A stretch of DNA of 34,137 nt from a virus, in IMG/VR virus record IMGVR_UViG_3300045988_022110, positions 1 through 34,137 of that record; one strand, written 5' to 3'. Numbering within the stretch: position 1 is the stretch's first letter; every line of letters starts with the position of its first letter. Below are positions 1 through 34,137 of the stretch, piece by piece. Both the position numbers and the translations under genes were made by a program. The notes beneath the pieces are model-generated. The model did not search any database. It saw nothing but the letters and a program-made list of their open reading frames with translations, and had not been told where the DNA came from.

Positions 1-119
1 ATTTATCTTATGGCTTTATTATACGCTCAATGAGCGTAAATGTCAAGAGGAAAAATGAAAAAATCAAAAAATAAATGGTACATAAATGGTACACAGACGT
101 CCCGCAAATGTCCCCCAGC
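1..119. repeat. Terminal direct repeat, copy 1 (end overlap of a circular or concatemeric molecule)
   Basis: Read base by base: atttatcttatggc...gcaaatgtcccccagc is identical to 34019-34137. Confidence 0.95.
71..92. repeat. Perfect tandem 11-mer ATAAATGGTAC x2 in the divergent intergenic region (second copy of the pair at 34089-34110)
   Basis: ataaatggtac at 71-81 is followed immediately by ataaatggtac at 82-92. It lies between the cassette B promoter and the cassette A start. Confidence 0.9.
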
Positions 120-190: not shown

Positions 191-832
191 ATGGAATACG
201 CAAGCAAGGGACTCGCAGGGACTGCGCTGGGCTTTGGCATCGGCGGCGCCGCGCTGGGACTGGCGAACGGCGGCCTCGGCAATCTGCTTGGCGGCCTCGG
301 CCAGAACAACAGGACAGCGGCTGCAGAGGTAACGGCAGCTGCGGCCACGCCTGCCATGGCTGCACTGGCTGCCGCACTGGCCACACGCCAACAGGAGCCG
401 ACGTGCAGCGAGAACATGCCGGTCACGCGCTACGATCTGGAGCGCGAACAGAAGCTGGCCGCGAAGGACAGCGAGATCGCGCTGCTCAAGGCCAACACGT
501 ACAACGACGGCAAGATGCTCGAGGTGTACGCTTACATCGACGGGCAGCTCAAGGACGTACGTGAGGCGCTGTGCAAGCAGGCCGTCCACAACCAGCGCAC
601 CGAGGACAGCTTCGCGCTGGTCAAGCAGGACGTCGAGTCTGTCCGCAAGGAGGCGCTTGATGCGGTCAAGATGGAGGCCGAGCGCCGCTGCTGCGGTGAC
701 AACTCCATCGTCACATACGTCAACGCGACCTTTTATCCAAAGCAGGTCGCAGATGTCACCACAGGCACCGCGACCACGGCGCAGACGCTCTACAACCCGG
801 TCCCGAAGTGCGGCGGGTGCTGCAACAGCTAA
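191..832 (+). CDS. Hypothetical protein, 213 aa: N-terminal glycine-zipper-like hydrophobic segment, central helical region, Cys-rich C-terminus
   Basis: ATG at 191 lies 10 nt after GGAG (177-180); the track start at 86 has no RBS. N-terminus GLAGTALGFGIGGAALGLANGGLGNLLGGLG; C-terminus has RRCCGDNS and KCGGCCNS-stop. No family recognised. Confidence 0.75.
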   Translation: MEYASKGLAGTALGFGIGGAALGLANGGLGNLLGGLGQNNRTAAAEVTAAAATPAMAALAAALATRQQEPTCSENMPVTRYDLEREQKLAAKDSEIALLKANTYNDGKMLEVYAYIDGQLKDVREALCKQAVHNQRTEDSFALVKQDVESVRKEALDAVKMEAERRCCGDNSIVTYVNATFYPKQVADVTTGTATTAQTLYNPVPKCGGCCNS

Positions 833-838
833 GCAAAA

Positions 839-858
839 GGGGCGGCAATCGCCGCCCC
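839..858 (+). other. GC hairpin inside the operon (ggggcggc-aatc-gccgcccc), possible attenuator or RNA-stability element
   Basis: Perfect 8-bp GC stem directly after the stop of 191-832. No T tract follows; the next RBS, AAAGGAGG, follows. Confidence 0.35.
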
Positions 859-881
859 ATCGTTAAAGGAGGAAATCTGCA

Positions 882-1220
882 ATGACAGTGACGATAGATC
901 AGGCCATGCGCGGCGCGATGCGCTACGCTGACAACGAGGTCATTCCGCACCTGCCAGGCGGAAAGGGCATCGGGGCCGGGATCATGCTGGCGCTCATCAT
1001 GGAGGGCAGCCGCGAAAAGATCCTTGCGCTGCGCGAGAATCCGGCGGTCAAGATGATGCAGATCTTTGACGACGCTGGAAACATCGACCTCGACAAGCTC
1101 TACAACGCGGCCAGGCCGCGCTTTGAAAACAAGCTGACCGTATCCGTCCCGCTGCTGGGCGATATGCGGTTTGGCCAGAACGACGTCGATAAACTCTACC
1201 GGTATATCCAGGAGGCGTGA
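882..1220 (+). CDS. Hypothetical protein, 112 aa
   Basis: ATG at 882 is preceded by AAAGGAGG. GC-rich third codon positions. Short hydrophobic patch GIGAGIMLALIM. No family recognised. Confidence 0.7.
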   Translation: MTVTIDQAMRGAMRYADNEVIPHLPGGKGIGAGIMLALIMEGSREKILALRENPAVKMMQIFDDAGNIDLDKLYNAARPRFENKLTVSVPLLGDMRFGQNDVDKLYRYIQEA

Positions 1221-1224
1221 TGAG

Positions 1225-1692
1225 ATGAAAGAATATATCGAAAAGCTTTACACAAAGCTGCACGAGGCCATGGAGAAACCCGTGACGCTGGGCAGCGCAG
1301 AGGAAGTCGGGCTGTACGCGAAGACGATCTGCAGGCTCGAAAAGCTGCACGGGCACCACGACGAGCCGGAGGCGGCCACATTTGATCGAGAAACGGCGAT
1401 GCAGTGGGCAGCCAACATGCAAAACGCCGACGGCACGACCGGCCCGCACTGGACGATGGAACAGACAACGGCCGTGGCAGAGAGCATGGGCATTCAGCCA
1501 AACGAGATCCCACGCTGGGCGTGGGGCGTGACGCTCAACATGATGTACTCGGACTACTACCCCGTCGCCGTGGAGTTCGGCCTCAACCGCCCGGAGTTTT
1601 ACGCGTCGCTGGCCAAGGCGTTCCTGCTCGACAAGGACGGCCCGGGGCCGGAACAGAAGCTCATGGCGTATTATGAGCATATCGCAAAATAA
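1225..1692 (+). CDS. Hypothetical protein, 155 aa
   Basis: Internal ATG at 1225 (MKEYIEKLYTKL...) lies 4 nt after the stop of the previous gene; the track start at 1171 overlaps that gene. No family recognised. Confidence 0.7.
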   Translation: MKEYIEKLYTKLHEAMEKPVTLGSAEEVGLYAKTICRLEKLHGHHDEPEAATFDRETAMQWAANMQNADGTTGPHWTMEQTTAVAESMGIQPNEIPRWAWGVTLNMMYSDYYPVAVEFGLNRPEFYASLAKAFLLDKDGPGPEQKLMAYYEHIAK

Positions 1693-1726: not shown

Positions 1727-3301
1727 TTATCGATGCACGACCATCCCAATAACACCGTTTATAAAAACAAAGTGTTCGGATAAGGATACATCTGGTACGC
1801 CGGACGCGCCGAAATCCGAACCGGGAGGGGCTTCAAGGGCAAGCATTTCCGGGTAGGTAATTTGGGCAGAATCAGTGACGTTAAAAAACATTTTTATCCT
1901 GTCGTCGTAGATATAGATCGCGTTTACAAACAATTCGATAACTTTTTTGCGATATTCGAGGTCGGCGGAATCCACGGAGCGGAACTGGCTGAGCCATGCA
2001 GCAACGTCCTCTTTTTGCAGCTGGACGCGGCTGGCGATGCGCAGCGTGGCAAGCTCATCCTCCAGCGAGCGCTTGCGGGCTTCGGAAGCTTCAATGCGCT
2101 CGTTGATCTTTGCGATGGCGGCTGCCGACGTTGTTTTGATGAGCGTGTCGACGAGGGCATCCAGCTCCTTATCAGCCTCGCGGATCTGCCGCTCCAGCGG
2201 CTTTATGCCAGAGGCATCATAGCTCCGGGCATACTCGGCCACAACGCGGTCCGCTGCGGCGCTGATCCACTCGTCGGTGAGCACGTGCGTGCCGATATAC
2301 TCCACGATATACTGCTCCAGCTCATCCTTGCGCTCGTTGCGCTTTTTGCAAGTATGGGCCTTCTTTCGGGCGGCGCAGGTGTAATAATAATACGTTGCGC
2401 CGTGTCTGCCGCGGCCGCACTCCCCTATCATCGGCGCGCCGCACAGCCCGCAGAACAGCTTCCCATGCAGCAGGTATTCAATTTTTGCTTTTGCATGGCC
2501 GGGGGCTTTGGCATTCGCGGTCAGGCGCGCGCGGACCTGCTGCTTGAGCTCCTTGGAGACGATGGCCGGGAACGCGTCCTCAATCACGATATCATCGAGA
2601 TACCGGTACGTGCCGACATAGCGCTCGTTGGAGAGGATCCGTTTTACAGAATCGATCGTGAGCGGGTTCCCGCGCTGGTTGCGGTAGCCGCGCTGCGCAC
2701 AGTCGGCAACGATCTGCTTCTGCGTAGCGCCGGCGGCGTACTGCTCATGCACAAAGCGCACGATCTGAGCGGCTTCCTCATCGACTTCATAGCGCTTATC
2801 AACAACGCGATAGCCGAGCGGGGCAAGCCCACCGAGGCTCAGCGCCTTCTCCGCGTTCTGCCGCATGCCGCGCCGGACATTCTGAGCGAGCTGCCGGGAA
2901 TATTCTTCGGCCATGGCCTCCAGGATCGCCTCCAACAGCACGCTCTCGCTGCTGTCGCCGACGCCCTCGGTGACGGACAGCACGCGCACGCCGTTGGCGC
3001 GGAGCTTTTTCTTGTAGATCGCACTATCGTAGCGATCACGGGAAAAACGATCCAATTTCCACACCAGCACAAAATCAAACGCATGCTTCGCACTGTCAGA
3101 AATCATGCGCTGGAACTCCGGGCGCGTCTCAGCGTAGCGGCCAGACAGGGCACGATCACAATACTCGCCGACGACGCGATAGCCGCGCTGCTGCGCGTAT
3201 TCGCGGCACTTGGCCAGCTGGCCGTCGATGGATTGATCGTTCTGCCCGGCAGAAGAATACCGCGCATAGATCACAACGTTTGCAAGATTCAGGCCGTCCA
3301 T
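1727..3301 (-). CDS. int: Large serine recombinase (phage integrase), 524 aa
   Basis: N-terminal resolvase-type motif VVIYARYSSAGQ. DRFSRD segment. Cys-rich zinc ribbon CGLCGAPM...YYYYTCAARKKAHTCKKR. Long C-terminal coiled coil. GGAGG RBS before the ATG at 3301. Confidence 0.93.
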   Translation of the reverse strand: MDGLNLANVVIYARYSSAGQNDQSIDGQLAKCREYAQQRGYRVVGEYCDRALSGRYAETRPEFQRMISDSAKHAFDFVLVWKLDRFSRDRYDSAIYKKKLRANGVRVLSVTEGVGDSSESVLLEAILEAMAEEYSRQLAQNVRRGMRQNAEKALSLGGLAPLGYRVVDKRYEVDEEAAQIVRFVHEQYAAGATQKQIVADCAQRGYRNQRGNPLTIDSVKRILSNERYVGTYRYLDDIVIEDAFPAIVSKELKQQVRARLTANAKAPGHAKAKIEYLLHGKLFCGLCGAPMIGECGRGRHGATYYYYTCAARKKAHTCKKRNERKDELEQYIVEYIGTHVLTDEWISAAADRVVAEYARSYDASGIKPLERQIREADKELDALVDTLIKTTSAAAIAKINERIEASEARKRSLEDELATLRIASRVQLQKEDVAAWLSQFRSVDSADLEYRKKVIELFVNAIYIYDDRIKMFFNVTDSAQITYPEMLALEAPPGSDFGASGVPDVSLSEHFVFINGVIGMVVHR

Positions 3302-3317: not shown

Positions 3318-3355
3318 ACCGCTCCGGCTTATCAGACCGGGGCGGTTGTTTTTTT
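3318..3355. terminator. Imperfect dyad accgctccgg-N9-ccggggcggt followed by a T-rich tract on the + strand: a terminator-like hairpin and a possible attP core
   Basis: 10-bp arms with one mismatch, then tgttttttt on the + strand. It occupies almost the whole 52-bp gap between int and the upstream minus-strand gene. Confidence 0.45.
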
Positions 3356-3764
3356 ATGTGCGGATCCAGCCGATTGATGGGCTGAGTACGTCGGCCACAA
3401 GCGCAAGGGCACACAGCGAAAGAATACCCAAGAGGATGAGCGTCACAAGCCGGTGCATGCGCAGGGACTTCTGATGCTGGGCAAGCTGCGCGCGAAGGGA
3501 TGCGTTCTCGGCACGGAGCATTTCGGCGTCGGAAGACTCGGCAGGCTCATCATGCGGGATACCGAAATAGTCATCAATAGAAACGCCCATCTCCCGGCAG
3601 ATCGGGCCGACCGTGTAAACAGATGGATTTTTGATGTCGCCGCGAAAAAACTGGGAGACGGTGCCGACGGAAAGGTCGGTATTTTCGGCGACGTCCTGGT
3701 TCGTTTTGTGCGGAGTGATCGTCTGCTTCTGCTCACGGCATAAATCAGATAATTTTTCCTTCAA
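3354..3764 (-). CDS. Membrane-anchored XRE-family HTH protein, 136 aa
   Basis: HTH-like NTDLSVGTVSQFFRGDIKNPSVYTVGPICREMGVSIDDYF. Coiled-coil AEMLRAENASLRAQLAQHQ. C-terminal TM helix LVTLILLGILSLCALALVADVL. TTG start with GGGGGA upstream. Confidence 0.75.
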   Translation of the reverse strand: MKEKLSDLCREQKQTITPHKTNQDVAENTDLSVGTVSQFFRGDIKNPSVYTVGPICREMGVSIDDYFGIPHDEPAESSDAEMLRAENASLRAQLAQHQKSLRMHRLVTLILLGILSLCALALVADVLSPSIGWIRT

Positions 3765-3883
3765 AACATATCATTCCCCCAAAAAAGCAAGACGTCTGAC
3801 TGCAAAAAGCAACTGTCATATCTTTACAAGTCTACCGTGGACAGGCTACCCTAAAGTTACAGACGGCTCCCGGTCGCCTGCGC

Positions 3884-3923
3884 AAGCAAAAGCCCGCGCC
3901 GTTGTTCGGCCAGCGGCGCGGGC
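3884..3923 (-). terminator. Rho-independent terminator after the TM2 gene
   Basis: Stem gcccgcgccg / cggcgcgggc, followed on the minus strand by ttttgcttg. Confidence 0.7.
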
Positions 3924-3929
3924 AAATCA

Positions 3930-4415
3930 TCATCCGAGCGCATACATAAGGCTGGGAATAACGCGGACGAACAAAAAGCAACCAGCGCAGAGCACAAGGG
4001 CGATGACAATAATAATTTTGCGGACGCGGCGCGGGCCTGCAACAGCGTCTGCATACTCATCCGGCGTCATGCCTGCGGTGTACTCATCATAGAGCGGGCG
4101 GCCAGCATCGTCAGTAAACTTATTATCATAGATCCGGCAAAAATCAACCAGCGTGCCGATACCCCAAAAGCCAAGCGTGATAAGCCAGAGCAGCCCAGTC
4201 CAGATCTTGCCGACATAAAACCGGTGCGCGCCGAAACCGCCGAGGAAGATGCAGAGCAGCAGCGCCGTTGAGCGTTTCTTCTGCGCGGGATGCTGTGTCT
4301 GCGTGCGAGATTCGGCTCTCGCCTGATCAAGAACATAGTTCACGGTCCCGCAGCCGCAGTGCGGGCAGATCAGAGCCTCGTCGTCGATCTCTTTACCGCA
4401 TTTGTTACAGTACAT
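3930..4415 (-). CDS. Zinc-ribbon plus TM2-domain membrane protein, 161 aa
   Basis: N-terminal CNKCG...CPHCGC. TM2 signature LLLCIFLGGFGAHRFYVGKIWTGLLWLITLGFWGIGTLVDFCRIY. One extra C-terminal TM helix. Confidence 0.85.
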   Translation of the reverse strand: MYCNKCGKEIDDEALICPHCGCGTVNYVLDQARAESRTQTQHPAQKKRSTALLLCIFLGGFGAHRFYVGKIWTGLLWLITLGFWGIGTLVDFCRIYDNKFTDDAGRPLYDEYTAGMTPDEYADAVAGPRRVRKIIIVIALVLCAGCFLFVRVIPSLMYALG

Positions 4416-4895: not shown

Positions 4896-4941
4896 CAAAA
4901 AATGAGCCGAGGACGGTTATTCGTCCTCGGCCATTTTTTTT
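4896..4941. terminator. Bidirectional rho-independent terminator overlapping the 3-prime end of the repressor gene
   Basis: Stem gccgaggacg / cgtcctcggc (4906-4931). A T8 run follows on the + strand and a T6 run on the - strand. Confidence 0.75.
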
Positions 4942-5291
4942 GCGATCTCGGCGAGCAGCTGCCACTCGTCAACACTGAGCTTGCTGATGATCGATACAAA
5001 CCGCTTGCGCGGCGCGTCGTCTGGATCGTGCATCACGACGCCCATAAACTCGGCGATTTCCTGATTCCGCGTAAGCTTCTGCTTCATCTCGCCCTCGCCA
5101 GTACGGAGCCAGGTCTCGCTCACACCGTATTCACGGCAGATATCAGCGATTGTGCGATCACTTGGCTGCTTTGCACCGGAGCACAACGATGAGACGAACT
5201 GAGACGAGACGTGAAGAGATTCAGCAAACTTCGTCTTTGTAAAGCCAAGCTCTTTGATTAAGAAATCAATCCGCTGATTGATGGTTTCCAT
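4917..5291 (-). CDS. CI-like XRE-family repressor, 124 aa, with no peptidase S24 domain
   Basis: N-terminal HTH IDFLIKELGFTKTKFAESLHVSSQFVSSLCSGAKQPSDRTIADICREYGVS. AAGGAGGG RBS. Divergent from the early operon. Too short to contain an autocleavage domain. Confidence 0.85.
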   Translation of the reverse strand: METINQRIDFLIKELGFTKTKFAESLHVSSQFVSSLCSGAKQPSDRTIADICREYGVSETWLRTGEGEMKQKLTRNQEIAEFMGVVMHDPDDAPRKRFVSIISKLSVDEWQLLAEIAKKMAEDE

Positions 5292-5313
5292 TGTTATCCC
5301 TCCTTATGAAACT

Positions 5314-5342
5314 AGGTTACCACACGTAGGTACAAAAGTCAA
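5314..5342 (-). promoter_or_regulatory. Candidate repressor-maintenance promoter
   Basis: On the minus strand: TTGACT, 17 nt, TAACCT, then the AAGGAGGG RBS and the ATG at 5291. The -10 is weak. Confidence 0.4.
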
Positions 5343-5374
5343 GAAATAAATGAAACTTAGATTCAAAATAATGC

Positions 5375-5403
5375 TTGACAACGAAACTGAGACGTGATAA
5401 TAT
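5375..5403 (+). promoter_or_regulatory. Early (lytic) promoter
   Basis: TTGACA (5375-5380), 17-nt spacer, TAATAT (5398-5403). It lies 45 nt upstream of the first early gene. Confidence 0.75.
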
Positions 5404-5447
5404 GAATCTAGGTTACAGATAACAGAAACCAATGCGAGGTGAGAACA

Positions 5448-5594
5448 ATGTCCGAGAAGGAAAAGCAGGTTATGGAAAGCCTGAGCAAGAATACTGAGAA
5501 GCTGACACCGGCACAGATGCAGCGCCTGAGCGATATCGCCTATGGCATGGCACTGGCCAAGGAAAGCAAGCAGGACGAGCGGAAGGAGGCATGA
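5448..5594 (+). CDS. Small early protein, 48 aa (first gene of the early operon; no obvious HTH)
   Basis: GAGGTGAG RBS then ATG at 5448. MSEKEKQVMESLSKNTEKLTPAQMQRLSDIAYGMALAKESKQDERKEA. Below the ORF track cut-off. Confidence 0.55.
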   Translation: MSEKEKQVMESLSKNTEKLTPAQMQRLSDIAYGMALAKESKQDERKEA

Positions 5595-5597
5595 GCC

Positions 5598-5780
5598 GTG
5601 CTGGCAGCAGTTGCATACCGGGCAGCGGACGGGAGTTTTCTCCCGGCAGAGCCCTTTGAGATCAAGCGCCAGGACGACGGGCACGGAGCGTCCAAGCTGG
5701 ACGCCTTCGCCCGCTGGGCAGCGGAGCGCTACAGGAAGGAACAGGAGGAGCGCACATGCAGGCCAAAACCTACACCCTAA
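5598..5780 (+). CDS. Hypothetical early protein, 60 aa
   Basis: GTG start with GGAAGGAGG upstream. Overlaps the next gene by 25 nt. Confidence 0.5.
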   Translation: MLAAVAYRAADGSFLPAEPFEIKRQDDGHGASKLDAFARWAAERYRKEQEERTCRPKPTP

Positions 5781-6207: not shown

Positions 6208-6449
6208 GAACCAATCTTGCAGAGCGGCTCGGGTATGAGCCGGAGGAAGAGACCAGGGAGCGGCAGAAGCGGTTGCTGGAGGAGCTGCGGTACCGGGAGG
6301 CCATGCGGCGGGTGGCGAAGACCTGCTGCGTGTGGCTGGGCGGCGCGGCATTTGTGCTGGCGGTGATTGCCGGGTACGCAGAGATGACCGACGCCTGCGT
6401 CGTGACCGGCGCGATCGCGCTGGGCCTGACGACCTACGGGATCCTGTGA
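6204..6449 (+). CDS. Small membrane protein, 81 aa
   Basis: ATGA start/stop overlap at 6204. Two hydrophobic helices: CCVWLGGAAFVLAVIAGY and VVTGAIALGLTTYGIL. Confidence 0.6.
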   Translation: MRTNLAERLGYEPEEETRERQKRLLEELRYREAMRRVAKTCCVWLGGAAFVLAVIAGYAEMTDACVVTGAIALGLTTYGIL

Positions 6450-32467: not shown

Positions 32468-32502
32468 GCTGCCGCCGGCATGCGGCGGCTGGAAGGGAGT
32501 GA

Positions 32503-32754
32503 CGAAGCATAACTGCGCGGCTGGCTCTGCCGAAGGAGCTGGAACACCTCACGCGCAGCGACTGGGAGCGCGTCACTGACGAGGGCATACTGGATCAGAT
32601 CGATCGGCAGATCGTGAAGCTCTATATCGTGCGCAGGCTCCCGCAGATGGACGCAGCCGCCGAGATCGGCGTCGACCGAAAAACCATCTCCCGCCGCCTG
32701 CCGCACATCATCACAATTGCCCGCCGCATCGCCGGAAGGCAGCATACAGAGTAA
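32503..32754 (+). pseudogene. Sigma region-4/LuxR-like HTH ORF (83 codons) with no canonical start codon
   Basis: Open frame reads ..ITARLALPKELEHLTRSDWERVTDEGILDQIDRQIVKLYIVRRLPQMDAAAEIGVDRKTISRRLPHIITIARRIAGRQHTE. GGGAG RBS lies 10 nt before an ATA at 32509. The first in-frame ATG/GTG/TTG is a GTG (the V of IVKLY), downstream of the N-terminal third of the ORF. Confidence 0.5.
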
Positions 32755-32788
32755 AAGCCCGTGGAGTGATCCACGGGCTTTTATTTTT
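32754..32788. terminator. Bidirectional rho-independent terminator
   Basis: Stem aaagcccgtgg / ccacgggcttt with loop agtgat, followed by tatttttc. It sits between convergent units. Confidence 0.85.
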
Positions 32789-32808: not shown

Positions 32809-33147
32809 TTACACGTTTTTGCTCAAGATCTCCGCGGCCATCGCGATCACATACGCTGGGCATGCGCGCTCACCGAGGCACCAGCCCTGCACGGTGCGCA
32901 GGGGGACGTTAAAATACTGTGCAAAGCCAGTCTGTGTCAGTCCGTATTTTTTAAGCAGCTCCGGGACTGTGCAGTGCGCGCCGTCCCAGACCGCGCAGAG
33001 CAGTGCAAGCCGTTCCGCTGGGATCTCGGCGTCTTCAGCGTCGCCCCAGATGCTTGATAGTGCCAGATCCGAGATATAGGCATCACGGTCAGCGTATGTG
33101 CCGGCCTCTGCGTAAAGCGTGGAGCGGATAAAAGGGGTAAGTGTCAT
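32809..33147 (-). CDS. Cassette B gene 3: protein with C-terminal XRE-type HTH, 112 aa (candidate autoregulator)
   Basis: ELLKKYGLTQTGFAQYFNVPLRTVQGWCLGERACPAYVIAMAAEIL. ATGA overlap with the upstream gene. Confidence 0.75.
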   Translation of the reverse strand: MTLTPFIRSTLYAEAGTYADRDAYISDLALSSIWGDAEDAEIPAERLALLCAVWDGAHCTVPELLKKYGLTQTGFAQYFNVPLRTVQGWCLGERACPAYVIAMAAEILSKNV

Positions 33148-33788
33148 GGTTTGTCCTCCAATTTTGTAACAGACCAGCCGTGCCAGGTGTAGCCGCGGCT
33201 GCCTGCATCATATAGCGCCTTACATACGGCGTCGACGGAATCCGGGTCGCCGGAGATATCAAAAAGTCCGGGGTGCTCACGGACAAAGTTGCGGAGATTA
33301 TGCACATCGTAGACATGATGCGCAAAGCGCAGCCGAAACGATCTCGCGGCAATGTGCTGTTCGCCGGGACTCGTCAGCGGCGACAGAGCCTGCGCCGCTA
33401 CACGCGCGGATGGGGATTGCTGCGCCTCCTGCAGCGCGCAGCCGCAGGACGTTGTATGCCCGGATTTGAGATTGCTCATGGGGACAACGGCGGTGCCGCC
33501 GCAGTCACACCGGCAAAGCCAGAGAGACTGGCTGCTTCGGCTGCCAACGCGCTCCACTGCGACGAGCCGACCGAACCGCTGCCCGGTGATATCTGCGCGG
33601 CGCTTGACGCCGCGATCATGGCCGCATGAAGTGGATTTGCCGCCGCGAAGATTGGATGATAAAACGACGCGCTCCGCACCGCAGGAGCAGCGGCAGCGCC
33701 AGAGGAGCCGCCCGCCAGCATCTTTCCCGGCAGGCCCAAGCACACGCCAGAGGCCAAAAACCTGACCGGTCAGGTCGATTGGTCGCAT
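33144..33788 (-). CDS. Cassette B gene 2: protein with two tandem Zn-ribbon modules and an unknown C-terminal domain, 214 aa
   Basis: Repeated LTGQ-FG-L-V...W-C-C-CG...L--G---SCG modules at aa 6-56 and 68-116. The start lies 3 nt after the stop of gene 1. Confidence 0.7.
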   Translation of the reverse strand: MRPIDLTGQVFGLWRVLGPAGKDAGGRLLWRCRCSCGAERVVLSSNLRGGKSTSCGHDRGVKRRADITGQRFGRLVAVERVGSRSSQSLWLCRCDCGGTAVVPMSNLKSGHTTSCGCALQEAQQSPSARVAAQALSPLTSPGEQHIAARSFRLRFAHHVYDVHNLRNFVREHPGLFDISGDPDSVDAVCKALYDAGSRGYTWHGWSVTKLEDKP

Positions 33789-33791
33789 CCC

Positions 33792-33989
33792 TTACGCATG
33801 AGCAACGACGCTCCAAGCGTCGCTGCGGCTGCCGTCAGTGTCAATCCACATGCGGCAGATATTGTCGGTCAGGCAGCGGTAGATAGCGCCAGTGTTGACG
33901 TTAAAACGGTAGGTGTACTTGCCGATAACGGTATCGATTCTTTCTTCAACAGCATTGCGGATGATTCTTTCGATGGTGGTCTTTTTCAT
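33792..33989 (-). CDS. Cassette B gene 1: small hypothetical protein, 65 aa
   Basis: GAAAGAGG RBS before the ATG at 33989. First gene behind the consensus promoter. Confidence 0.65.
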   Translation of the reverse strand: MKKTTIERIIRNAVEERIDTVIGKYTYRFNVNTGAIYRCLTDNICRMWIDTDGSRSDAWSVVAHA

Positions 33990-34018
33990 GTTGTACCTCT
34001 TTCCGGCTTATCGCCTTG

Positions 34019-34137
34019 ATTTATCTTATGGCTTTATTATACGCTCAATGAGCGTAAATGTCAAGAGGAAAAATGAAAAAATCAAAAAATAAATGGTACA
34101 TAAATGGTACACAGACGTCCCGCAAATGTCCCCCAGC
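34019..34137. repeat. Terminal direct repeat, copy 2
   Basis: Exact 119-bp copy of bases 1-119. The window ends at the point where the copy ends. Confidence 0.95.
34036..34064 (-). promoter_or_regulatory. Consensus sigma-70-type promoter with a palindromic operator in its spacer (duplicate copy at 18-46)
   Basis: Minus strand reads TTGACA-tttacgctcattgagcg-TATAAT. The spacer and first -10 base form the perfect palindrome ACGCTCA-t-TGAGCGT (34041-55). An A/T-rich UP-like tract lies upstream of the -35. Confidence 0.8.

What the first reader, a model, noticed from the sequence alone, without database searches (positions are those of the whole stretch)
32809..34064. Operator-controlled three-gene cassette ending in an HTH protein (acr/aca-like or other anti-defence/moron architecture)
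Directly visible:
- A perfect TTGACA-17-TATAAT promoter has an A/T-rich upstream tract.
- A perfect 7-1-7 palindrome, ACGCTCAtTGAGCGT, sits in the spacer.
- It drives three tightly coupled minus-strand genes: 65 aa; 214 aa with two Zn-ribbon modules plus an unknown domain; and 112 aa with a C-terminal XRE HTH.
- A strong bidirectional terminator closes the unit.
- The cassette sits in the accessory slot between the lysis genes and the integrase, and is transcribed against the late operon.

A very strong promoter throttled by an operator, small unknown genes first and an HTH gene last is the established layout of anti-CRISPR/aca operons. Other autoregulated phage anti-defence or lysogenic-conversion cassettes share it. 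I recognised none of the three proteins beyond generic motifs.
Basis: partly seen in the sequence, partly recalled or inferred. Interest (0 to 1): 0.75.

Follow-up and report, generated by a model that had tools for sequence, protein, structure and literature searches.

The report
Self-repressed phage cassette with swappable cargo
A gut-bacterium phage carries a small operon with a very strong promoter that its own last gene most likely shuts off; related phages keep the promoter, operator and regulator but swap the genes in between, as known anti-CRISPR operons do, although what these cargo genes do is untested.

Summary
The window holds one 12/12 sigma-70 promoter (0.04 expected by chance). 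A perfect 7-1-7 palindrome sits in its 17-bp spacer. Three coupled minus-strand genes follow (65, 214 and 112 aa), then a 14-bp-stem bidirectional terminator.

Comparison with about 100 related loci shows what it is. The promoter, palindrome, 5' leader, last gene (g3) and terminator form a conserved chassis. The genes in between are variable cargo: at least 12 families. g1+g2 occur in only 4 of 80 loci fetched through g3.

The palindrome changes symmetrically between loci. Its half-site is predicted by g3 residues 88 (recognition helix) and 93, including in lineages only 43-53% identical. Cargo sets are shuffled across operator types. This is strong indirect evidence that g3 binds the operator and represses its own operon.

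g3 belongs to no named Aca family that I could test. g2 is built from two modules of phage HNH/AP2 homing-endonuclease-type proteins, with no detectable nuclease domain. No cargo protein matches a known Acr or defence protein, so the anti-defence role remains an inference.

Verdict: a new member of the acr-aca-type kind of operon, from phages of Oscillospiraceae.

The parts
34065..34088 (-). A/T-rich tract directly upstream of the -35, resembling an UP element
   Evidence: Read directly. An A/T-rich tract occupies this position in all related loci.
34036..34064 (-). Sigma-70/SigA-type promoter TTGACA-17-TATAAT, matching 12/12
   Evidence: unique in the genome, 0.04 expected. Conserved as TTGAC(A/T)-17-TATAAT in 79 of the first 84 loci (L001-L084).
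34041..34055 (.). 15-bp operator palindrome ACGCTCAtTGAGCGT in the spacer, overlapping the -10. Predicted binding site of a g3 dimer.
   Evidence: One search shows a single true copy. The palindrome changes symmetrically across loci and tracks g3 residues 88 and 93.
33990..34029 (-). Conserved 5' leader (CCATAAGATAAAnnAAGGCGA(T)AAGCCGG) followed by the ribosome-binding site of the first cargo gene
   Evidence: Conserved whichever gene comes first. It contains only a weak 3-bp hairpin and has no Rfam match. The transcription start is inferred, not mapped.
33792..33989 (-). g1, cargo gene 1 (65 aa, pI 8.7), function unknown
   Evidence: No Pfam, PHROG, NCBIfam or PADLOC hit. The family is small: 21 clusters, all at least 71% identical. 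In the g3-type loci that carry g2 (L001-L006, L032, L034) g1 lies directly upstream of it.
33144..33788 (-). g2, cargo gene 2 (214 aa, pI 9.5). Two Zn-ribbon repeats (residues ~8-58 and ~68-118) plus a C-terminal domain (~127-213). No nuclease domain detected.
   Evidence: phrog_374 'HNH endonuclease' at E=4e-38, matched through the repeats. The C-terminal domain matches PDB 9kja_A at E=4e-12. BFVD fold matches are AP2/HNH-type phage proteins. AF2 pLDDT is 82. No HNH or other nuclease Pfam hit.
32809..33147 (-). g3, the conserved regulator (112 aa). It has an N-terminal three-helix domain (1-57, no known relative) and a C-terminal XRE HTH (58-111, recognition helix 83-91). Predicted autorepressor.
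   Evidence: Residues 88 and 93 predict the operator type.
32752..32783 (.). Bidirectional intrinsic terminator shared with the convergent late/lysis operon
   Evidence: A hairpin of -15 kcal/mol or stronger follows g3 in 80 of 81 loci.
18..46 (-). Second listing of the same promoter and operator, caused by the 119-bp circular-assembly overlap. Not a separate site.

Best explanation
This is a self-repressed accessory operon of a temperate phage of Oscillospiraceae. Its logic is that of acr-aca operons.

1. A consensus promoter with an A/T-rich upstream tract fires as soon as the DNA meets host RNA polymerase. It transcribes g1, g2 and g3.
2. g3 is translationally coupled to the gene before it through an ATGA overlap. 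It accumulates and binds, presumably as a dimer, the 15-bp palindrome between the -35 and the -10. Binding there shuts the promoter down.
3. The result would be an early burst of cargo, followed by a low steady level in the lysogen.
4. Terminators insulate the unit from the late operon.
5. The promoter, operator, leader, g3 and terminator form a conserved chassis. Different cargo genes are exchanged into it by recombination.
6. In this phage the cargo is g1 plus g2. g2 is a basic, nuclease-less protein made of homing-endonuclease-type modules that are presumed to bind DNA.
7. By analogy, the cargo most likely serves counter-defence or competition between phages.

Shown here: the anatomy, the conserved chassis with variable cargo, and the covariation of operator and recognition helix. 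Inferred: binding, repression, timing and cargo function.
For: - Anatomy.
- Spread of g3: 171 protein clusters, 363 IMG/VR stretches, and full-length homologues in Oscillospiraceae MAGs.
- Variable cargo: of 80 loci fetched through g3, only 4 carry g1+g2. The others carry at least 12 other families in about 10 combinations.
- Conserved promoter design: the promoter with a palindrome at the same spacer position is found in 79 of the first 84 loci (L001-L084). It is also found in lineages only 42-53% identical.
- Operator types: the palindrome varies symmetrically in four types, CGCTCA, CGCCCA, CACGCA and CACCCA.
- Covariation: among 40 unique pairs of g3 sequence and operator type, only columns 88 and 93, out of 67 variable columns, fully predict the type.
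- Same code in distant lineages: D88 goes with CACGCA in about 9 lineages. N88 goes with CACC/CACT in 5. G88 goes with CGC(T/A)CA in 2.
- Shuffled cargo: six cargo sets each occur with two operator types, yet the operator-HTH pairing has no exception.
- Position of the key residue: residue 88 lies in helix 83-91 of a confident XRE-HTH model.
- Tandem cassettes: 13 of 79 loci have a second promoter with the same operator type just after g3. In the two read in detail (L005, L027) it drives further cargo with no second g3. One of them (L005) is a near-identical relative of this phage.
- Other regulators: g2-like cargo recurs in analogous cassettes governed by unrelated regulators.
- Cargo properties: many cargo proteins are small and very acidic, with pI about 4.
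- Literature: Aca proteins bind palindromes overlapping strong acr promoters (PMC9410906). They can co-regulate adjacent operons (PMC13551039).
Against: - No experiment: binding, repression and timing are inferred only.
- No cargo protein matches a known Acr, anti-defence or defence family. This holds for PADLOC, Pfam, PHROGs and PDB sequences.
- g3 is not detectably a member of any named Aca family. The best match is Aca10 (7xi5) at E=0.013, over the HTH only.
- This phage's own cargo, g1 and g2, is basic and of the type presumed to bind DNA. It is not the acidic type typical of DNA-mimic inhibitors.
- Both g2 domains come from homing-endonuclease-type proteins, so a selfish-element origin is possible.
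- Some of the covariation could reflect shared ancestry. The shuffled cargo and the recombined N-terminal halves of g3 argue against that.
Confidence: 0.6

Rival explanations
1. Lysogenic-conversion, defence or superinfection-exclusion cassette. The cargo is expressed from the prophage to protect or alter the host, for example by binding incoming phage DNA. g3 only sets the expression level.
For: - The cassette occupies the moron slot next to the lysis genes and near the recombinase.
- It has its own promoter and is insulated by terminators.
- The basic Zn-ribbon proteins, presumed to bind DNA (g2, C5, C22), could act on foreign DNA.
- Operator types that diversify as immunity groups do would suit competition between phages.
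Against: - No PADLOC hit for g1, g2 or g3.
- No enzymatic domain in any cargo protein.
- Many cargo proteins are 65-125 aa and strongly acidic, which is more typical of inhibitors than of defence effectors.
- A consensus promoter throttled by an autorepressor suits a burst on entry.
Confidence: 0.2
2. g1-g2 is a decayed homing-endonuclease-type selfish element that landed in the cassette. It has no function for the phage.
For: - The g2 repeats match phrog_374 'HNH endonuclease' at 4e-38.
- Hundreds of homologues carry AP2 or HNH domains.
- The C-terminal domain matches PDB 9kja 'HNH endonuclease'.
- BFVD fold matches are AP2/HNH-type proteins.
Against: - The full-length nuclease-less architecture is conserved from 98% down to 40% identity, with invariant residues in both domains.
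- It recurs as cargo in three kinds of regulated cassette, always beside the endolysin.
- No nuclease domain is detectable.
- The other cargo sets are unrelated to homing endonucleases.
Confidence: 0.08
3. A second immunity or antirepressor control region, like immI of phage P22. The cargo would be antirepressors or switch modulators kept silent by g3.
For: - A strong promoter with an overlapping operator, placed far from the main switch.
- Operator and regulator specificities that diversify as in heteroimmune phages.
- One cargo family (C5) carries an HTH resembling that of g3.
Against: - The phage has a separate candidate lysis-lysogeny switch region: a CI-like HTH gene (4917-5291, minus strand) facing plus-strand ORFs. 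These were read from the ORF list and not scanned against family libraries.
- The cargo is too diverse, at least 12 unrelated families, to share one repressor target.
- With the repressor gene last in its own operon, some cargo is always made. That would be risky for an antirepressor.
Confidence: 0.07
4. A type II toxin-antitoxin module with the XRE antitoxin encoded last, as in HigBA or MqsRA.
For: - The g3 HTH weakly resembles HigA2, PezA and Xre-type antitoxins.
- The genes overlap and the operon appears autoregulated through a palindrome.
Against: - The non-HTH domain of g3 (residues 1-57) is conserved whichever cargo precedes it. It therefore cannot be a toxin-specific neutraliser.
- No cargo protein resembles a toxin.
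- The cargo ranges from one to three genes.
Confidence: 0.04

Closest known systems
acr-aca operons (Aca1, Aca2, Aca10 and others; AcrIIA1 N-terminal domain in Listeria prophages)
   Same: - A strong promoter with a palindromic operator overlapping the core promoter.
- An HTH regulator encoded in the operon, here as the last gene.
- The same regulator family paired with many different small upstream genes.
- The same cargo family paired with different regulators.
- In some relatives, one regulator facing two promoters. Co-regulation of adjacent operons by Aca proteins is reported in PMC13551039. The general Aca logic is described in PMC9410906.
   Different: - g3 is not detectably a member of any Aca family with a solved structure. 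The best match is Aca10 at E=0.013 over the HTH only.
- g3 carries an extra conserved N-terminal three-helix domain with no known relative.
- No cargo protein is a known Acr.
- Within this one family the operator specificity has diversified into at least five types, tracked by residues 88 and 93.
- The host is an Oscillospiraceae gut anaerobe.
Lambdoid/434-type XRE repressors and their heteroimmune operator sets
   Same: - The XRE HTH fold.
- A symmetric operator of about 15 bp whose outer bases vary.
- Specificity that tracks a residue aligning with 434 repressor Gln33. This alignment rests on my own knowledge of 434 and on fold matches with weak Foldseek E-values (1 or higher).
   Different: - The cassette is not at the phage's candidate lysis-lysogeny switch region, which lies around 4917-5600.
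- It has a single operator rather than a tripartite one.
- It controls accessory cargo rather than replication or lysis genes.
Phage HNH/AP2 homing-endonuclease-type proteins (phrog_374; PDB 9KJA 'HNH endonuclease')
   Same: - The two Zn-ribbon repeats of g2 are homologous to modules found in these proteins.
- The C-terminal domain of g2 is homologous to PDB 9KJA.
   Different: - g2 has no HNH, AP2 or other catalytic domain.
- It is conserved as a 213-230 aa protein that rides as cargo in regulated cassettes beside the endolysin.
Restriction-modification controller (C) proteins such as C.Esp1396I
   Same: - A small XRE HTH regulator.
- A palindromic operator at its own promoter.
- Fold matches.
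   Different: - No restriction or modification genes are present.
- The regulator gene is last, not first.
- There is a single operator inside the spacer of a consensus promoter, not paired C-boxes that give activation followed by repression.

Membership tests
acr-aca-type autoregulated anti-defence operon | A DNA-binding regulator (HTH or RHH) is encoded within the operon | tested here: met
   The C-terminal half of g3 is an XRE HTH. It is the last gene and overlaps g2 by 4 nt.
acr-aca-type autoregulated anti-defence operon | An inverted-repeat operator overlaps the core promoter | tested here: met
   A 15-bp perfect palindrome lies in the 17-bp spacer and overlaps the -10. It is conserved in position in 79 of the first 84 loci (L001-L084).
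acr-aca-type autoregulated anti-defence operon | The regulator recognises that operator | tested here: met
   Comparative evidence only. The operator half-site type is fully predicted by g3 residues 88 and 93. The same code holds in lineages 43-53% identical, despite cargo shuffling.
acr-aca-type autoregulated anti-defence operon | Binding represses transcription of the operon | not testable with these tools
   This needs EMSA, a reporter assay or RNA-seq. The operator position within an optimally spaced consensus promoter predicts repression.
acr-aca-type autoregulated anti-defence operon | The same regulator family is associated with variable cargo genes, and the cargo with different regulators | tested here: met
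   At least 12 cargo families occur upstream of g3. g2-like cargo occurs with a 93-aa HTH_3 regulator (L085) and with a 60-aa RHH-like last gene (L089).
acr-aca-type autoregulated anti-defence operon | At least one cargo gene is, or is homologous to, a validated Acr or anti-defence protein | tested here: not met
   No hit for the cargo representatives (g1 and seven others, concatenated) against all PDB chain sequences, which include many Acr structures. No hit for g2 apart from 9KJA. No annotated function in Pfam or PHROGs. PADLOC gave nothing for g1-g3. No dedicated Acr database was available.
Named Aca families (Aca1-Aca14) | Significant sequence similarity to a family member | tested here: not met
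   The g3 profile against PDB sequences found only Aca10 (7xi5) at E=0.013 over 37 HTH residues. Fold matches to Aca1, Aca7 and Aca10 have Foldseek E of 1 or higher and cover the generic HTH only. Families without a solved structure could not be tested.
HNH/AP2 homing endonuclease (for g2) | Zn-ribbon repeat modules shared with these proteins | tested here: met
   phrog_374 at E=4e-38 with two matched stretches. Invariant Cys/His pattern. BFVD fold matches.
HNH/AP2 homing endonuclease (for g2) | A catalytic nuclease domain (HNH beta-beta-alpha-metal or equivalent) | tested here: not met
   g2 has no HNH, AP2 or other nuclease Pfam hit. The isolated C-terminal domain and the aligned 9KJA segment also have none.
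Type II toxin-antitoxin with XRE antitoxin | The antitoxin carries a domain specific to its cognate toxin, and the toxin has a recognisable family | tested here: not met
   The non-HTH domain of g3 is conserved across unrelated cargo. No cargo protein resembles a toxin.
Phage CI/Cro immunity switch | Located between divergent lysogeny and early lytic genes, with multiple operators | tested here: not met
   The CI-like gene, read from the ORF list only, lies at 4917-5291 with divergent plus-strand ORFs from about 5600. The cassette has a single operator in the genome.

The most novel reading that the evidence does not exclude
The operator and regulator have diversified into at least five matched specificities, tracked largely by two residues. 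This would make them immunity groups for accessory operons. A resident prophage's g3 would silence the cassette of an incoming phage that has the same operator type, as described for anti-anti-CRISPR repressors. Selection would then favour phages that switch specificity. In addition, the basic Zn-ribbon cargo (g2, C5, C22) would be a new class of DNA-binding effector, domesticated from homing-endonuclease targeting modules and used in conflict between phages, or between phage and host.
Probability: 0.2. Interest if true: 0.75.

Novelty: new member of a known kind. Interest (0 to 1): 0.55.

Why it matters
- If g3 is an Aca-like autorepressor, it becomes a ready guilt-by-association marker. It occurs in 363 IMG/VR stretches and 171 protein clusters.
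- The marker points to a dozen or more uncharacterised candidate counter-defence or phage-competition proteins. They come from phages of Oscillospiraceae, an abundant gut group with few experimentally studied phages.
- The correspondence between residues 88 and 93 and the operator gives a compact natural set of orthogonal repressor-operator pairs. A 4x4 binding matrix could test it directly.
- The family also allows a test of whether regulators of anti-defence operons diversify under pressure from cross-repression by resident prophages.

Tried and rejected
**Searches that found nothing useful**
- Nucleotide search of the cassette against INPHARED phages: no match.
- PADLOC and NCBIfam for g1-g3: nothing useful.
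- Pfam and PHROGs for the cargo representatives: no function.
- PDB sequence search of concatenated cargo: only noise.
- Foldseek of the whole g2 model against the PDB: no significant match. The flexible multidomain model has pTM 0.38.
- A paper for PDB 9KJA: none found. Its sequence has a single relative in the phage collection, an inovirus hypothetical protein.
- Exhaustive phmmer search with the g2 C-terminal domain: only 17 representatives, which was uninformative.
- Rfam scan of the region: only sub-threshold terminator look-alikes.
- The leader RNA has only a weak hairpin, z = -2. I therefore do not claim an Aca2-like RNA operator.
- g1 compared with the small gene upstream of a distant g2 homologue: no similarity.

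**Ideas rejected**
- The sigma-70 region-4-like gene next to the cassette is not part of the system. Among the divergent g3 loci (42-49% identical; L094-L104) it was found only in L103.
- The toxin-antitoxin, immunity-switch, C-protein and active homing-endonuclease readings are rejected for the reasons given in the membership table.
- The palindrome copy at 23-37 is not a second operator. It is the assembly overlap.

**Tool note**
- The terminator scan missed the main terminator. It was confirmed by repeat finding and folding.
Full report
**1. The observation**

- On the minus strand the window reads ...tttattttttgattttttcatttttcctc TTGACA tttacgctcattgagcg TATAAT aaagcc....
- The consensus scan scores the promoter 12/12 with a 17-nt spacer. 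Allowing one mismatch, it is the only such site in 34 kb. Shuffles give 0.04 expected matches.
- The 15-bp palindrome ACGCTCAtTGAGCGT (34041-34055) fills the spacer and overlaps the first base of the -10.
- Three minus-strand ORFs follow: g1 at 33792-33989 (65 aa), g2 at 33144-33788 (214 aa) and g3 at 32809-33147 (112 aa).
- Three nt separate g1 from g2. g2 and g3 share an ATGA overlap.
- A 14-bp perfect hairpin flanked by A and T runs closes the unit (32752-32783). Its folding energy is -25 kcal/mol, z = -6.7.

Two corrections of context:
- The first 119 bases of the window equal its last 119. It is a circular contig of 34,018 bp, so the palindrome hit at 23-37 is the same copy.
- A metagenome contig carrying an identical g2 protein (L001) confirms the join. 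Upstream of the promoter lies a divergent three-gene plus-strand unit (191-1692). Beyond it is a 524-aa large serine recombinase (1727-3301, minus strand).
- A candidate lysis-lysogeny switch lies elsewhere: a CI-like HTH gene at 4917-5291 faces plus-strand ORFs. I read these from the ORF list and did not scan them against family libraries.

**2. The three proteins**

g1:
- It has no match in Pfam, PHROGs, NCBIfam or PADLOC.
- Its family is tiny: 21 clusters, all at least 71% identical.

g2:
- It carries two CxCxC...CG(H/C) repeats with invariant ligand residues. AF2 models them confidently as beta-rich units.
- The repeats match phrog_374 'HNH endonuclease' at E=4e-38.
- They recur in hundreds of proteins whose other domains are AP2, HNH and others.
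- BFVD fold matches are likewise AP2/HNH-type phage proteins.
- The C-terminal domain (about 127-213) matches one solved structure, 9kja_A, an unpublished 111-aa 'HNH endonuclease', at E=4e-12.
- Neither g2, nor its isolated C-terminal domain, nor the aligned 9KJA segment has a detectable nuclease domain.
- The full-length nuclease-less architecture is conserved from 98% down to 40% identity.

g3:
- Its AF2 model is confident, with pLDDT 93 and pTM 0.81, and shows seven helices.
- Residues 58-111 form an XRE-type HTH. A family profile matches PDB 2ppx at 4e-5.
- Fold matches at about 2 A rmsd include Aca1, Aca7, Aca10, HigA2, C.Esp1396I and P2 C. All have weak Foldseek E-values because the domain is small.
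- Residues 1-57 form a three-helix domain with no relative in the PDB or Pfam. This domain is strongly conserved (motif Y.DRDAYISDLALSSIWGD).

**3. Comparative genomics**

- g3 is widespread: 171 protein clusters and 363 IMG/VR stretches.
- Full-length homologues occur in MAGs of Oscillospiraceae, including Dysosmobacter and Faecalibacterium. That family is the likely host.
- Of the 80 IMG/VR loci fetched through g3, only four carry g1+g2.
- The others carry unrelated genes between the same promoter and g3. Examples are a 91-aa protein plus a 236-277-aa protein with three Zn ribbons and a g3-like HTH; a 72+119+178-aa trio; an acidic 87-108-aa protein with a 125-aa or 79-aa partner; a very acidic 67-aa protein; and a 140-aa or 114-aa Zn-ribbon protein.
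- None of these has a known function.
- The cargo falls into two classes. One is small and strongly acidic, with pI about 4. The other is basic Zn-ribbon proteins such as g2, with pI 9.5.
- The promoter, an A/T-rich upstream tract, the spacer palindrome and a roughly 40-nt leader are conserved whichever gene comes first.
- A terminator-like hairpin follows g3 in 80 of 81 loci.
- In most relatives the cassette reads in the same direction as the lysis genes, behind its own upstream terminator. In the lineage of this window it is inverted.

**4. Evidence that g3 reads the palindrome**

- Across loci the palindrome changes on both arms at once. This gives four types: CGCTCA.TGAGCG, CGCCCA.TGGGCG, CACGCA.TGCGTG and CACCCA.TGGGTG.
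- Among 40 unique pairs of g3 sequence and operator type, two columns out of 67 variable ones predict the type perfectly. They are residue 88 (G, H, D or N) and residue 93 (E, D, R or Q).
- Residue 88 lies in helix 83-91, the recognition helix of the model. By my own alignment it corresponds to Gln33 of 434 repressor, which contacts bases.
- Six cargo sets each occur with two different operator types. The N-terminal half of g3 recombines freely. The operator-HTH pairing nevertheless has no exception.
- Lineages only 43-53% identical obey the same code:
  - D88 with CACGCA, in about nine lineages.
  - N88, mostly with Q93, with CACC or CACT, in five lineages.
  - G88 with CGC(T/A)CA, in two lineages.
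- The variable bases are the outer ones of each half-site. Their centres lie about 9 bp apart, which suits a dimer on one face of the helix.
- The site lies upstream of the transcription start, so an RNA hairpin cannot explain the symmetry.
- A protein bound inside an optimally spaced consensus promoter should block RNA polymerase. Repression is therefore inferred, not shown.

**5. Further modular features**

- In 13 of 79 loci a second promoter with the same operator type sits directly after g3.
- In the two such loci read in detail, L005 and L027, it drives an acidic 67-73-aa protein plus a 178-aa protein, with no second g3.
- One of these loci, L005, has g1 and g3 identical to the window's and g2 97-99% identical.
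- One g3 would thus control two operons, as reported for some Aca proteins (PMC13551039).
- Distant g2 homologues (50% and 42% identical) are also cargo in small cassettes that converge on an endolysin gene.
  - One has a promoter TTGACT-17-TATACT with ACGCCAATATTGGCGT in the spacer and a 93-aa HTH_3 gene.
  - The other has TTGACA-17-TATAAT with GCGTACGC in the spacer and ends in a 60-aa RHH-like gene.
- One regulator family with many cargoes, and one cargo family with several regulators, is the association pattern used to find acr-aca loci (PMC9410906).

**6. Interpretation**

- The best-supported reading is a self-repressed accessory operon.
- The chassis consists of the promoter, operator, leader, g3 and terminator. 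The cargo (g1+g2 here) is exchangeable.
- The predicted behaviour is a burst of cargo on DNA entry, then shut-off by g3.
- Cargo function is the weak point. Nothing links any cargo protein to a known Acr or defence protein.
- This phage's cargo is the basic type presumed to bind DNA. It is built from homing-endonuclease modules.
- I therefore rate the regulatory mechanism as likely, at about 0.75. I rate a counter-defence role for the cargo as only plausible, at about 0.4.
- The rival readings are a prophage-expressed exclusion or defence moron, a decayed selfish element, an immI-like antirepressor region and a toxin-antitoxin pair. Each is weighed in its own section.
- The toxin-antitoxin reading fails because the non-HTH domain of g3 is conserved across unrelated cargo.

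**7. Comparison and novelty**

- The cassette works like an acr-aca operon. It cannot be filed as a member of any named Aca family. The best match is Aca10 at E=0.013 over the HTH alone.
- No cargo protein is a known Acr.
- A literature search found no description of this family.
- I class it as a new member of a known kind.
- Two features deserve follow-up. One is the diversification of operator specificity within the family, tracked largely by two residues. The other is the use of nuclease-less homing-endonuclease-type proteins as cargo.

Noticed in passing
window 1-119 and 34019-34137: The two ends of the window are identical over 119 bases. It is therefore a circular contig of 34,018 bp, probably a complete phage genome. 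Features in the overlap are listed twice.
   Followed up: yes
window 32500-32754 (+): A small ORF resembling sigma-70 region 4 lies directly after the endolysin gene. It has no ATG, GTG or TTG start; an ATA after a GGGAG motif near 32506 is possible. Its homologue in other phages is an 82-aa gene that directly precedes the cassette on the same strand. Among the divergent g3 loci (42-49% identical) it was found only in L103, so it is probably a backbone gene.
   Followed up: partly
window 34089-34137 (= 71-119): Four repeats in 11-nt phase lie upstream of the cassette promoter, in the intergenic region shared with the divergent operon. On the cassette strand they read GGGACATTTGC GGGACGTCTGT GTACCATTTAT GTACCATTTAT. 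An unrelated phage with g2-like cargo (L085, 4060-4100) has three TTTGGTCAT repeats at the same place. They may be binding sites for another regulator.
   Followed up: no
window 191-1692 (+): A divergent three-gene unit converges on the recombinase gene. Its products are a 213-aa protein with a glycine-rich hydrophobic N-terminus, a coiled coil and a C-terminal CGGCC motif; a 112-aa protein; and a 155-aa DUF7841 protein. The first two are only 34-44% identical in related phages, so this may be a second variable accessory unit.
   Followed up: partly
L005 6370-7210; also L027-L030, L033, L037, L038, L041, L044-L046 and L051 near position 6403: A second promoter with the same operator type lies immediately after g3. 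In L005 and L027, the two loci read in detail, it drives an acidic 67-73-aa protein and a 178-aa protein with no second regulator gene. L005 has g1 and g3 identical to the window's and g2 97-99% identical.
   Followed up: partly
L007-L011, L018-L030 and others, gene directly upstream of g3: One cargo family (236-277 aa) has three CxxC...CPxC zinc ribbons. It ends in an HTH that is 45-52% identical to g3 residues 57-109. It could compete with or cooperate with g3 at DNA.
   Followed up: no
window 33990-34029 and the same position in all related loci: The 5' leader (CCATAAGATAAAnnAAGGCGA(T)AAGCCGG) is conserved whichever cargo gene follows. It has only a weak GGC-loop-GCC hairpin. It may be a recombination boundary or a translational control element.
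   Followed up: partly
L089 4330-4425: A tRNA-like sequence ending in CCA lies next to a cassette with g2-like cargo, at what looks like a prophage end beside host peptidase genes. It is probably the attachment site. I did not run the tRNA finder on it.
   Followed up: no
window 3354-4415 (-): The lysogeny module includes a 136-aa protein with an XRE HTH and a C-terminal transmembrane segment. It also includes a 161-aa zinc-ribbon/TM2-like membrane protein. Both lie between the recombinase gene and the CI-like repressor gene.
   Followed up: no
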